IMG/VR virus record: IMGVR_UViG_2547132417_000010 | Direction: 5' to 3' (one strand) | Length of the DNA: 6,982 nucleotides | Origin: a virus | Lineage: Duplodnaviria; Heunggongvirae; Uroviricota; Caudoviricetes | In this document: in pieces, positions 1,455 to 2,318 of the stretch | Layout of the letters: each line of letters opens with the position of its first letter | How positions within the stretch are numbered: the stretch's first letter is position 1 | The notes under the pieces: model-generated | What the model was told of the DNA's origin: nothing | Databases searched by the model: none | What the model saw: the letters and a program-made list of their open reading frames with translations, nothing else | Translations under genes and position numbers: made by a program

Positions 1455-2318
1455 TTAAACATGCTTTTCCAAGGTAAAGATAACTGCACCTGATGGTGTG
1501 ATATCAGAGAGATTACATTCAAACTCAGCAGACTTATTTGATAGCCTGACCTTTCCACCTGGCATTCTGATTACGTCAAAAATATCGAGCGCACCATCAA
1601 TGCCAATAAGCCAACGACCATTTCCTATCTTTGAGTTAGAACAATCAACAAGCCAAGATGCGCCAACTCCATCAATAAAGACCAACTCATCAATGTTTGC
1701 AGGAACCATTGAAAGGTCTGGAGTCCAACGCCCAATATCTTTTAACTCACCAGCTTCAAGACGACATTTTCTTACTGTTAAGGCGTTAAGTGATTCACCC
1801 TCTTTGCTGTCTCGCATTTGGCCTTTTCCTGTAGATAGCCACTCTAACGATACGCCAGTATCGAGTGCGCAGGTCACAACCACATCGCCAGGGAAGAAGT
1901 CACGCCTAACCCAAGTGCTAATAGTACCGGAAGAAATACCTAATAAATCACCAAGCTCTTTTTGCATCGTAAAACCATAAGCATCCAGAATCCTACGCAA
2001 AACGGTTTTACCGCCGTTCGTCATAATCTCGTCATAAAGCTCTTTGCCTTTTAACTTGCAACCGACTCGCCCATGATTTGCATTTGCAAGCTCACCACTT
2101 ACAAGCCAATTAATATCAGCGCCCGTGTCAAGACAACACCTAACTATGATGTTGCCAGGTATTGCATCGCGTTGAACCCAGCCGCTAACGCTATGTTTCG
2201 CGATTCCTAGCAGGTCAGCCAAATCCTTTTGCATCTTGACGCCATAGGCTGACATTAAGCGCTCTAATACGCCATTTGACGCACCTATGCGCCACTGAAC
2301 ATCAAGCTCAGAACTCAT
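1455..2318 (-). CDS. CI-type immunity repressor (phage 186 CI-like HTH family) with tandemly duplicated N-terminal DNA-binding domain
   Basis: 287-aa ORF divergent from the rightward operon. Two internal repeats (aa 17-75 and aa 105-164) each carry an AYG[VF].MQK.L.DLLGI...W.RD..PG...C.LDTG...WL..G pattern resembling the 186 CI N-terminal HTH. A C-terminal region (WLIGIDGALDIFDVIRMPGGKVRL) is consistent with a CI C-terminal oligomerisation domain. RBS AGGGG precedes the ATG at 2318. Confidence 0.7.
   Translation of the reverse strand: MSSELDVQWRIGASNGVLERLMSAYGVKMQKDLADLLGIAKHSVSGWVQRDAIPGNIIVRCCLDTGADINWLVSGELANANHGRVGCKLKGKELYDEIMTNGGKTVLRRILDAYGFTMQKELGDLLGISSGTISTWVRRDFFPGDVVVTCALDTGVSLEWLSTGKGQMRDSKEGESLNALTVRKCRLEAGELKDIGRWTPDLSMVPANIDELVFIDGVGASWLVDCSNSKIGNGRWLIGIDGALDIFDVIRMPGGKVRLSNKSAEFECNLSDITPSGAVIFTLEKHV

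What the first reader, a model, noticed from the sequence alone, without database searches (positions are those of the whole stretch)
1455..2318. CI-type repressor carries a tandem internal duplication of its HTH DNA-binding domain
Residues 17-75 (nt 2094..2270) and 105-164 (nt 1827..2006) align along their whole length with roughly half the positions identical (counted by eye): VLERLMSAYGVKMQKDLADLLGIAKHSVSGWVQRDAIPGNIIVRCCLDTGADINWLVSGE versus TVLRRILDAYGFTMQKELGDLLGISSGTISTWVRRDFFPGDVVVTCALDTGVSLEWLSTGK. The protein is 287 aa, whereas I recall 186 CI as about 190 aa with a single N-terminal HTH. Two HTH domains in one chain would change operator half-site spacing and stoichiometry relative to a dimer of single-HTH subunits.
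Basis: seen in the sequence. Interest (0 to 1): 0.6.

Follow-up and report, generated by a model that had tools for sequence, protein, structure and literature searches.

The report
Phage CI repressor with two HTH domains
This prophage repressor really does carry two copies of its DNA-binding domain, an arrangement common among PsP3-like phages, and comparison suggests one copy sets immunity at the main promoter while the other keeps an older specificity for distant control sites.

Summary
The 287-aa protein (1455-2318, minus strand) has two Pfam PF07022 CI-type HTH domains plus the 186-CI C-terminal domain PF16452. The repeats share 31/60 residues (BLASTP E 7e-25), and third codon positions match only at chance level, so the duplication is old.

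It is not rare. PsP3 CI is 84% identical with the same architecture, as are SW9, SEN1 and Midge. So are 56 of 78 related genome loci and about a quarter of distant family clusters. At least three lineages seem to have duplicated independently. I found no paper describing it; one 2011 paper called PsP3 CI's extra length "a longer C-terminal domain".

The comparative evidence is new.
- HTH2 is under strong purifying selection (35 synonymous vs 4 non-synonymous codon changes against PsP3).
- Single-HTH relatives with an HTH2-type domain carry the palindrome ACTTGC-N4-GCAAGT in their pR spacer.
- Two-HTH phages carry it at the three distal positions where 186 CI binds: inside cI (window 2076-2091), before cII (2812-2827) and at the late-activator promoter.
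- HTH1 evolves fast and changes together with the pR-proximal DNA.

Best reading: division of labour between the two heads. This is inferred, not tested.

The parts
1455..2318 (-). cI gene, 287 aa: HTH1 - linker - HTH2 - linker - 186-type C-terminal domain
   Evidence: ORF. Pfam 2x PF07022 + PF16452. 84% identical to PsP3 CI. AF2 three-module model. Foldseek top hit 2FJR.
2073..2285 (-). HTH1 (residues 12-82): the extra, fast-evolving CI-type HTH. Proposed immunity-specific reader of the pR operators.
   Evidence: Pfam/HMM envelope. AF2 helices 17-74. 40% identical to the 186 NTD. Mean column entropy 1.13 bits over 61 proteins, highest in the turn and helix 3. 18 synonymous / 30 non-synonymous codon changes against SW9.
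2025..2090 (-). Inter-HTH linker (residues 77-98), predicted disordered at 78-87
   Evidence: AF2 pLDDT <50 for residues 78-87. A mosaic junction lies here: window vs PsP3 is 91-94% nt identical up to the linker and 71-79% beyond it.
2076..2091 (.). FL-like site ATTTGCATTTGCAAGC: an HTH2-type palindrome inside cI, in codons E76-N81 of the linker
   Evidence: within 2075-2092; WIN, -235, 2 mismatches. Same relative place as 186 FL, which also lies inside cI. Synonymous sites are fixed across 61 proteins: Ala GCA 44/44, Leu CTT 21/22, Asn AAT 34/35.
1809..2024 (-). HTH2 (residues 99-170): the conserved CI-type HTH, counterpart of the single HTH of 186 CI. Proposed reader of ACTTGC-N4-GCAAGT palindromes.
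   Evidence: 2FJR aligns from residue 105. 35 synonymous / 4 non-synonymous codon changes against PsP3 and 38/8 against Midge. Entropy 0.55 bits. 76-80% identical to the sole HTH of single-HTH relatives, whose pR operator is that palindrome.
1467..1775 (-). C-terminal oligomerisation domain (residues 182-284), 186 CI CTD fold
   Evidence: PF16452 E 4e-18. AF2 beta domain, pLDDT about 85-90. Foldseek against 2FKD: TM 0.86, rmsd 1.7 A.
2348..2376 (+). Candidate lytic promoter pR: TTTACA-17-TATAGT
   Evidence: The only 10/12 consensus match in the region. Same position and orientation as annotated pR of 186 relative to the cI start. The hexamers are conserved in PsP3, SW9 and Midge, while the -35-proximal spacer and the upstream DNA differ.
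2328..2365 (+). Immunity-type-specific repeats TACAGATAATTTT(A) (2328) and TACAGAAAACTTT(TTA) (2350), 22 bp apart, over the -35 and spacer of pR. Candidate HTH1 operators; exact boundaries unresolved.
   Evidence: Direct repeat D2. Spacing equals the two-turn phasing of the three 186 pR operators. This DNA is shared with phages that have the same HTH1 helix (PsP3, L008, L009). It is replaced by other repeats where HTH1 differs: SW9, Midge, Kosakonia and Serratia groups.
2384..2465 (.). 82-bp block identical in the window, PsP3, SW9, Midge and RCIP0057. It covers the presumed pR transcript start, the pL region and the start of the gp30-like gene.
   Evidence: Five-way alignment. Function inferred only by position from the 186 Apl sites and pL.
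2445..2496 (-). Two weaker copies of the FR core: S1 (2445-2462, core TTGATTTTGCA) and S2 (2479-2496, AGTTTGATTTTGTAAGTT). Possible weak CI (HTH2) sites near pL, or sites for another protein.
   Evidence: S2 is conserved in Midge despite nearby divergence. Within the window alone the core motif is only borderline above chance (9 matches against 4.6 expected).
2812..2827 (.). FR-like site ACTTGATTTTGCAAGT (AACTTGATTTTGCAAGTT 2811-2828): an HTH2-type palindrome 16 bp upstream of the cII ATG
   Evidence: Identical (reverse complement) to the pR-spacer operator of the single-HTH relative L063. Same position as 186 FR over pE. Conserved in PsP3, SW9 and Midge within diverged intergenic DNA.
2440..2793 (+). 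gp30-like gene (117 aa), first gene of the lytic operon; positional analogue of apl/cox
   Evidence: ORF. No Pfam family. Homologue of PsP3 gp30, described as a singleton Cox/Apl analogue in PMC3448106.
2844..3353 (+). cII (169 aa from ATG 2844; the listed TTG 2814 start is probably too early)
   Evidence: PF06892, E 9e-47. Alignment with the 186 cII start.

Best explanation
This is the immunity repressor of a PsP3-type (186-like, Eganvirus) prophage remnant. It is a 186-CI-family repressor with an extra CI-type HTH domain at the N-terminus.

Proposed mechanism, inferred from comparison and not tested:
- The C-terminal domain oligomerises as in 186 CI.
- HTH2, the counterpart of the single 186 HTH, keeps an ancestral specificity for the palindrome ACTTGC-N4-GCAAGT. 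It holds the repressor at the distal sites FL (inside cI), FR (over pE, upstream of cII) and the late-activator promoter.
- HTH1 is the rapidly diversifying head. It reads the immunity-specific operators arrayed about two helical turns apart over pR.

Because HTH1 and pR lie next to each other, immunity can be exchanged as one recombination cassette without re-evolving the distal sites.

Shown here: the architecture, the selection pattern, the positions of the sites and their conservation.
Inferred: which head binds which site, and the oligomeric state.
For: 1. Both repeats are bona fide CI-type HTH domains with conserved fold residues (R20/R109, Y25/Y114, W47/W136, R50/R139, C61/C150, W71/W160).

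2. HTH2 is under strong purifying selection rather than recently copied. Against PsP3 it has 35 synonymous vs 4 non-synonymous codon differences, and against Midge 38 vs 8. HTH1 has 18 vs 30 against SW9 and 22 vs 31 against Midge. Entropy is 0.55 vs 1.13 bits.

3. Twenty-one single-HTH relatives have a sole HTH that is 76-80% identical to HTH2, with nearly the same recognition helix (SSGTISTW[VI]RR); their CTDs are only 33-38% identical. In 18 of the 21 the palindrome ACTTGC-N4-GCAAGT (<=2 mismatches) lies at pR. In the examples read it fills the -35/-10 spacer, the same register as the central 186 operator.

4. In the 61 two-HTH loci analysed, that palindrome is at pR in only 6. It is at the FL position in 15 (44 at <=3 mismatches) and at the FR position in 22 (31 at <=3). 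Control windows give 0.7% and 4%. It also lies at the late-activator promoter in PsP3, SW9, Midge and RCIP0057. These are the three distal places where 186 CI is annotated to bind.

5. The FL site lies in DNA coding a predicted disordered linker, and its synonymous positions are fixed: Ala GCA 44/44 against 21% elsewhere in cI, Leu CTT 21/22 against 18%.

6. The pR-proximal DNA changes with HTH1 and not with HTH2. Window, PsP3, L008 and L009 share both the HTH1 helix and the repeats. The SW9, Midge, Kosakonia and Serratia groups each have their own. In the Kosakonia group it is a clear palindrome, AATCGC-ATTT-GCGATT, in the pR spacer of all 16 loci.

7. Window vs PsP3 is mosaic, with the junction in the inter-HTH linker.
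Against: - There is no binding data for any two-HTH CI.
- HTH1 is physically adjacent to pR. Their co-variation could reflect linkage and mosaic recombination alone.
- I could not define a convincing dyad for the window's own HTH1 operator. The right arm of the pR spacer (CGATC) is conserved in all immunity groups, and only the left part varies.
- In the Serratia group an HTH2-type palindrome sits at pR next to an HTH1-type one, so the partition is not absolute.
- The loci compared are related by descent, so the counts are not independent events.
- Within the window alone the palindrome pattern is not above chance (5 matches against 4 expected at <=3 mismatches).
- The 14-mer wheel is assumed from 186 (CTD TM 0.86) and was not tested.
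Confidence: 0.6

Rival explanations
1. Two-headed subunit on a composite operator. HTH1 and HTH2 of one chain bind adjacent half-sites of the same operator at pR. This changes half-site spacing and stoichiometry, and the distal palindromes are secondary.
For: The flexible 10-20-residue linker would allow it. In the Serratia group an HTH2-type palindrome (ATTTGCATTTACAAGT) and an HTH1-type palindrome (TCGCATTTTGCGA) lie about 13 bp apart, centre to centre, at pR. The pR repeats in the window are direct, not inverted.
Against: In the window, and in 55 of 61 two-HTH loci, no HTH2-type site lies at pR. The nearest weak copy (S1) is about 95 bp away. HTH2-type sites are full palindromes, which suggests a pair of HTH2 heads per site. 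They sit at the known distal 186 positions.
Confidence: 0.15
2. HTH1 is not a DNA reader. It is a regulatory or decoy module, for example the docking surface for the Tum-type antirepressor or a dimerisation aid. HTH2 does all operator binding.
For: 186-type repressors are inactivated by an antirepressor that binds CI (PMC3121763). Fast evolution could reflect an arms race with antirepressors. HTH2 is the domain that matches 186 CI.
Against: pR in the window lacks the HTH2-type palindrome that single-HTH relatives carry there, so something else must recognise pR. HTH1 keeps the HTH fold residues and the S/T-x-W-x-x-R helix-3 signature. Its variable positions are those of the turn and recognition helix. 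Clear group-specific palindromes occupy the pR spacer, e.g. AATCGCATTTGCGATT in 16/16 loci of one HTH1 group.
Confidence: 0.12
3. HTH2 is a structural spacer that no longer binds DNA. The conserved palindromes are sites for another protein (CII, the gp30-like protein or a host factor).
For: The FR palindrome overlaps the pE region, where CII also acts. S1 and S2 lie in a block that may hold gp30-like protein sites.
Against: HTH2 is the most strongly constrained part of the protein. Its recognition helix is nearly the same as in single-HTH repressors (SSGTISTW[VI]RR), whose only candidate operator is this palindrome. Those relatives have an unrelated first lytic gene, so the palindrome tracks the HTH2-type domain and not the apl-type gene. 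The palindrome also sits at the late-activator promoter, a CI site in 186.
Confidence: 0.05

Closest known systems
Coliphage 186 CI repressor (192 aa; PDB 2FJR, 2FKD)
   Same: Same HTH family (PF07022) and C-terminal domain (PF16452). The AF2 CTD superposes on 2FKD at TM 0.86. Same gene order int-cI / apl-like-cII-fil-A. pR sits just upstream of the cI start, with operators over the -35/-10 about two turns apart. Candidate distal sites lie inside cI, before cII and at the late-activator promoter, as for 186 FL, FR and pB.
   Different: 186 CI has one HTH per chain; this protein has two. In 186 the single HTH is reported to recognise two distinct sequence types, at pR/pB and at FL/FR. I saw only the title of Shearwin et al. 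2002, cited in papers found; the rest is my own knowledge. Here the two site classes appear to be split between two heads. The operator sequences differ.
PsP3 CI (NP_958086, 286 aa) and the CI proteins of SEN1, SW9, SI22, Midge and RCIP0057
   Same: Same two-HTH + CTD architecture at 70-84% identity. The HTH1 helix and pR repeats are identical to those of PsP3.
   Different: The window gene is a mosaic. The HTH1/pR part is 91-94% nt identical to PsP3, and the remainder only 71-79%. None of these proteins has been characterised for the role of the second HTH. PMC3448106 described PsP3 CI as having 'a longer C-terminal domain'.
Single-HTH CI repressors of Rahnella, Ewingella, Franconibacter and Citrobacter prophages (L063-L084, 192-196 aa)
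   Same: Their sole HTH is 76-80% identical to HTH2, with nearly the same recognition helix. Their pR operator, ACTTGC-N4-GCAAGT, equals the window's FR-like site.
   Different: They have no HTH1. The palindrome is at pR rather than at the flanks. The CTD is only 33-38% identical.
P2 C repressor (99 aa, binds direct repeats)
   Same: Immunity repressor of a related phage group; its operators are direct repeats (PMC2995052 abstract).
   Different: Unrelated in sequence and half the size (PMC3448106). It has one HTH per chain and no PF07022 or PF16452 domain.
Bipartite DNA readers with two HTH units in one chain (MarA/AraC family, POU and paired domains; the mycobacteriophage TipsytheTRex repressor uses two domains on an asymmetric site, PMC9283540)
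   Same: Two DNA-reading modules in one polypeptide joined by a linker. This is an analogy from general knowledge and from an abstract seen.
   Different: Those proteins read one contiguous bipartite site as monomers. Here the evidence favours two separate operator classes read by an oligomeric repressor. There is no homology.

Membership tests
186-type CI repressor family (PF07022 + PF16452) | CI-type five-helix HTH DNA-binding domain at the N-terminus | tested here: met
   PF07022 E 2e-52, two copies. AF2 shows two five-helix bundles. HTH2 aligns to 2FJR. HTH1 is 40% identical to the 186 NTD.
186-type CI repressor family (PF07022 + PF16452) | 186-type beta-rich C-terminal oligomerisation domain | tested here: met
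   PF16452 E 4e-18. Foldseek against 2FKD: TM 0.86, rmsd 1.7 A.
186-type CI repressor family (PF07022 + PF16452) | Position in a P2/186-like early region: cI-(DUF2511)-int leftward; apl analogue-cII-fil-...-A rightward | tested here: met
186-type CI repressor family (PF07022 + PF16452) | Single HTH per subunit (the canonical 186 architecture) | tested here: not met
   Two copies. This defines a two-HTH subfamily and does not exclude the protein from the family.
186-type CI repressor family (PF07022 + PF16452) | Assembly into a wheel of seven dimers that wraps and loops DNA | not testable with these tools
   Only a monomer model could be made. The CTD fold is conserved, but sequence identity to the 186 CTD is about 24-29%.
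186-type CI repressor family (PF07022 + PF16452) | Operators at pR plus distal FL, FR and pB sites | tested here: inconclusive
   Candidate sites were found by sequence at all four corresponding positions. There is no binding evidence.
186-type CI repressor family (PF07022 + PF16452) | Induction by a LexA-controlled antirepressor (Tum) rather than by RecA-mediated self-cleavage | not tested
   The tum region is not in the window. The best C-terminal Pfam match is PF16452, and Peptidase_S24 is not among the 25 families listed of 26.
PsP3-type two-HTH CI subfamily (database-defined, uncharacterised) | HTH1-linker-HTH2-CTD, 276-290 aa, HTH2 helix SSGT(I/M/V)STW(V/I)RR | tested here: met
LexA / lambda-CI type S24 repressors | Peptidase S24 C-terminal domain with a Ser-Lys dyad | tested here: not met
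   The best C-terminal Pfam match is PF16452, and Peptidase_S24 is not among the 25 families listed of 26. Only distant fold similarity to the LexA CTD. A few remote relatives (P0224, P0249) do combine tandem HTHs with S24.

The most novel reading that the evidence does not exclude
The PsP3-type repressors are a natural 'two-reader' version of the 186 wheel repressor. A conserved head (HTH2) anchors the oligomer to an invariant palindrome at FL, FR and the late-activator promoter. A swappable head (HTH1), encoded next to pR, sets immunity. Heteroimmune phages can then arise by exchanging one short HTH1+pR cassette. The same solution, an added N-terminal CI-type HTH, has evolved independently in at least three lineages of the family.
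Probability: 0.4. Interest if true: 0.7.

Novelty: new variant of a known kind. Interest (0 to 1): 0.5.

Why it matters
Phage 186 CI is a model for cooperative, DNA-wrapping and DNA-looping gene control. A widespread natural variant with two heads per subunit would carry up to 28 DNA-binding domains per wheel, if the wheel forms. It has not been discussed in the literature I could search.

If the two heads divide the work as the comparative data suggest, three things follow.
- It shows how immunity specificity can diversify by cassette exchange without breaking long-range regulation.
- It gives concrete, cheap experiments: defined palindromes and defined domains.
- It offers a natural counterpart to 186, where a single HTH is reported to read two site types.

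If not, the finding is simply a correct domain annotation of an ordinary PsP3-like prophage repressor.

Tried and rejected
- In-window statistics for the candidate sites are weak on their own. AACTTG-N6-CAAGTT at <=3 mismatches gives 5 matches against 4.0 expected. TTGATTTTGCA at <=2 mismatches gives 9 against 4.6 expected, reached by 6 of 200 shuffles. The case rests on position and conservation across loci, not on the window alone.
- I could not define a dyad-symmetric operator for the window's HTH1. The pR spacer reads GAAAACTTTTTACGATC. Only an A4-N-T4 core and the 22-bp direct repeat are evident.
- A scan for HTH1-type palindromes (ATCGC-N4-GCGAT, <=1 mismatch) was too permissive to say anything about distal sites. 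Only the pR hit (16/16 and 11/11 loci) is meaningful.
- The promoter scan found only pR. pL is not called at the tool's threshold. My hand-picked pL candidate (TTGATT-17-CATTAT, minus strand, about 2428-2458) matches 8/12 and is unverified.
- Literature searches for a description of the tandem HTH found none (PsP3, P2-like regulatory genes, PF07022, tandem or duplicated HTH phage repressor). Subscription-only papers are not covered.
- The NJ tree of 72-column HTH domains has no support values. The claim of independent duplications rests mainly on the group identity matrix. Concerted evolution within a protein is not excluded.
- For the Felsduovirus/Elveevirus two-HTH repressors I saw TGTGA-type repeats at pR. 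In ST437-OXA245phi4.2 a perfect palindrome, GTCACAACAATTGTGAC, lies in the inter-HTH linker DNA. I did not establish which head reads what.
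Full report
**Context**

The window is the early-control region of a 186/PsP3-like (Peduoviridae, Eganvirus-type) prophage.

- Leftward genes: a truncated integrase (199-1083), a DUF2511 protein (1107-1445) and cI (1455-2318).
- Rightward genes: a gp30-like gene (2440-2793), cII (2844-3353), DUF2732, a DksA-type zinc-finger gene and replication gene A (4339-6564).
- The best phage matches are Salmonella phages SI22/SW9, E. coli phage vB_EcoM-613R3, SEN1 and PsP3.

**The observation**

It is confirmed.

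- Pfam finds two PF07022 (CI-type HTH) stretches and one PF16452 (186-CI C-terminal domain).
- The two repeats align without gaps at 31/60 identities, E 7e-25. No shuffle out of 100,000 exceeded 13 identities.
- DNA identity between the repeats is 52%, and third codon positions match at chance level (16/60). The duplication is therefore old.
- AlphaFold2 gives two independent five-helix bundles (helices 17-74 and 102-163, the second preceded by an extra helix at 92-100). Low-confidence linkers (78-87 and 171-177) connect them to a beta-rich C-terminal domain.
- That C-terminal domain superposes on the 186 CTD (2FKD) with TM 0.86 and rmsd 1.7 A.
- 186 CI (2FJR) aligns to residues 105-280 only. 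HTH2 plus the CTD therefore equal a complete 186 CI, and HTH1 is the additional module.
- HTH1 is nevertheless clearly homologous to the 186 N-terminal domain (40% identity, E 1e-13).

**How unusual is it?**

It is not unusual within its lineage.

- PsP3 CI (deposited as 'cI, immunity repressor') is 84% identical over the full length. SEN1, SW9, SI22, Midge and RCIP0057 share the architecture.
- The 120 best clusters in the protein database are consistent with it: nearly all are 276-289 aa and list PF07022 plus PF16452, with three shorter or partial entries.
- 65 of 5,426 complete E. coli genomes carry a close DNA match, annotated 'phage repressor protein CI'.
- A species-level genome scan returned 78 loci: 56 two-HTH, 21 single-HTH and one truncated. 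The scan patterns came from HTH2 and the CTD, so this is not a family-wide frequency.
- Among 50%-identity representatives of at least 170 aa in the best 150 hits, 21 clusters have two or more CI-type HTH copies and 64 have one.
- Two-HTH CI proteins also occur in Felsduovirus and Elveevirus phages at about 31% identity to this one.
- Each two-HTH group has copies more similar to each other than to either copy of another group. Clade B is 57% D1-D2 against 31% D1-D1 with clade A; clade C is 55% against 32% or less. In a rough NJ tree, the second copy of clades A and B nests among single-HTH proteins. This points to at least three independent duplications, although concerted evolution is not excluded.
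- I found no paper that describes the tandem HTH. Nilsson et al. 2011 noticed the extra length of PsP3 CI but attributed it to 'a longer C-terminal domain' (PMC3448106).

**What the two copies do: comparative evidence**

*Selection pattern.*
- Aligning the window's CI with PsP3, SW9 and Midge shows HTH2 almost unchanged and HTH1 divergent, especially in the turn and recognition helix.
- This is selection, not recent copying. HTH2 has 35 synonymous against 4 non-synonymous codon differences versus PsP3, and 38 against 8 versus Midge. HTH1 has 18 against 30 versus SW9 and 22 against 31 versus Midge.
- Over 61 two-HTH proteins, mean column entropy is 1.13 bits for HTH1 and 0.55 for HTH2. The fold-defining residues are invariant in both.
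- The window's gene is a mosaic relative to PsP3. It is 91-94% nt identical from upstream of the gene through HTH1 and the linker, and 71-79% in HTH2 and the CTD. HTH1 and the adjacent promoter DNA therefore travel together.

*The target of HTH2.*
- The 21 single-HTH relatives (Rahnella, Ewingella and others; 192-196 aa) have a sole HTH that is 76-80% identical to HTH2, with nearly the same recognition helix (SSGTISTW[VI]RR). Their C-terminal domains are only 33-38% identical.
- In 18 of the 21, the palindrome ACTTGC-N4-GCAAGT (<=2 mismatches) lies at the lytic promoter next to cI. In the examples I read it fills the -35/-10 spacer, e.g. TTGACA-ACTTGCAAATGCAAGTT-TAGATT.
- That is the register in which the central operator of 186 fills its own pR spacer: TTTACT-ATCTCTCAATTGGGAGA-TATATT.
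- The same palindrome occurs in the window at 2811-2828 (AACTTGATTTTGCAAGTT). This is identical to the Ewingella operator and lies 16 bp upstream of the cII ATG, the position of 186 FR.
- It also occurs at 2076-2091 (ATTTGCATTTGCAAGC), inside cI in the codons of the inter-HTH linker. 186 FL likewise lies inside cI.

*Counts across loci.*

| Position | 61 two-HTH loci, <=2 mismatches | 61 two-HTH loci, <=3 mismatches | 21 single-HTH loci, <=2 mismatches |
|---|---|---|---|
| pR | 6 | 11 | 18 |
| FL | 15 | 44 | 0 |
| FR | 22 | 31 | 1 |
| Control windows | 0.7% | about 4% | 0.7% |

- The FL site is kept at the DNA level. In the peptide G-E/K-L/F-A-N/K-A, Ala is GCA in 44/44 cases (21% elsewhere in cI), Leu is CTT in 21/22 (18% elsewhere) and Asn is AAT in 34/35 (59% elsewhere). 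The segment is predicted to be disordered.
- In the four complete phage genomes examined, covering three immunity types, the palindrome also sits at the promoter of the late-activator gene (ogr/pag/B homologue), e.g. AACTTGCAAATGCAAACTT in PsP3. 186 CI is annotated to repress pB there.
- All three distal 186 CI-site positions therefore carry the HTH2-type palindrome, and it is the same in phages with different HTH1.

*The pR region.*
- The one strong promoter match in the region is TTTACA-17-TATAGT at 2348-2376.
- Over it lie two direct repeats 22 bp apart, TACAGATAATTTT and TACAGAAAACTTT. This equals the two-turn phasing of the three 186 pR operators (PMC3675496).
- This DNA is shared by loci with the same HTH1 helix (PsP3, L008, L009). 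Where HTH1 differs it is replaced by other repeats:
  - CAAAA(A)TTTTG-type in the SW9 group;
  - ACTCAWWWTCGATTTA, twice, in the Midge group;
  - AATCGC-ATTT-GCGATT in the pR spacer of all 16 Kosakonia-type loci;
  - TCGC-N5-GCGA in all 11 Serratia-type loci.
- From about 2384 rightward the sequence is identical in all five phages for 82 bp.

**Interpretation**

The best-supported reading is a division of labour. HTH2 retains the ancestral specificity and serves the distal sites. HTH1 is the diversifying head that reads the immunity-specific pR operators. The 186-type C-terminal domain provides oligomerisation.

I put this at 0.6, for these reasons:
- There is no binding evidence.
- HTH1-pR co-variation is confounded by physical linkage.
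- The window's own HTH1 operator could not be defined as a dyad.
- The Serratia group has both palindrome types side by side at pR, so joint binding at one promoter is possible.

Each is listed with what would refute it.

**Verdict**

The feature is real, and the gene is an ordinary member of a database-known but functionally undescribed two-HTH subfamily of 186-type repressors. The architecture is not novel for this window. The inferred logic of the architecture is new as far as I could determine, and it is directly testable.

Noticed in passing
window 1-260 and 6580-6982; int 199-1083: The prophage is a remnant. The integrase keeps only positions 2-75 of the 172-position catalytic-domain profile, and its last ~40 residues are unrelated. 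An ISL3-family transposase fragment lies at 6681-6923. The two window ends together match a single ~1.9-kb element present in thousands of enterobacterial plasmids. The 6.4-kb int'-cI-cII-A segment therefore seems to lie between two copies of one IS.
   Followed up: partly
window 2384-2465: An 82-bp stretch is 100% identical in the window, PsP3, SW9, Midge and RCIP0057, although the flanking coding DNA differs by 15-25%. It spans the presumed pR start, the pL region and the gp30-like start. It probably holds pL and binding sites for the gp30-like protein, but this was not analysed.
   Followed up: no
window 2440-2793: The first lytic-operon gene (117 aa) has no Pfam family. It corresponds to PsP3 gp30, called a singleton Cox/Apl analogue in PMC3448106. 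The Midge record annotates its homologue as a Cox-like repressor on HHpred evidence.
   Followed up: no
window 2814-2844: The ORF list starts cII at TTG 2814. Alignment with 186 and the 169-aa length argue for ATG 2844. The FR-like palindrome then lies upstream of the gene instead of inside it.
   Followed up: yes
L001 5285-5300, L002 5245-5260, L003 5237-5252, L004 5239-5254: The HTH2-type palindrome lies at the promoter of the late-activator gene (ogr/pag/B homologue) in PsP3, SW9, Midge and RCIP0057. A further GCAAAT half-site lies just upstream.
   Followed up: partly
L032-L036, L040, L042, L043, L046 (Serratia prophages), about 40-60 nt upstream of cI: These two-HTH loci carry an HTH2-type palindrome (ATTTGCATTTACAAGT) over the -35 and a different palindrome (TCGCATTTTGCGA) in the spacer, about 13 bp apart centre to centre. 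Another HTH2-type site lies about 190 bp further on. This may be an intermediate or joint-binding arrangement.
   Followed up: partly
L005 (Klebsiella phage ST437-OXA245phi4.2) about 302 nt into cI; L006 upstream of cI: The independently duplicated Felsduovirus/Elveevirus two-HTH repressors show TGTGA-type repeats about 20 bp apart at pR. In L005 a perfect palindrome, GTCACAACAATTGTGAC, lies in the DNA coding the inter-HTH linker. It resembles the 186 FL/FR half-site GTGAAT and the placement of FL in the window.
   Followed up: partly
L047 (Enterobacter sp. EA-1) cI; L085 (Lonsdalea iberica) cI: L047 has a scrambled stretch in HTH2 helices 2-3 (QMQKIVICWISRPGPSAPHWVRR), as from a pair of frameshifts. 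L085 is truncated after HTH1 (215 aa). These may be pseudogenes or assembly errors.
   Followed up: no
proteins P0224, P0249, P0254, P0213, P0253: Remote relatives combine two or three CI-type HTH copies with a Peptidase_S24 domain (P0224, P0249). P0254 carries at least two copies by Pfam, three by my own domain HMM. P0213 and P0253 are arrays of 6-7 HTH_3 units. HTH multiplication is therefore a recurrent theme beyond the 186-type family.
   Followed up: no
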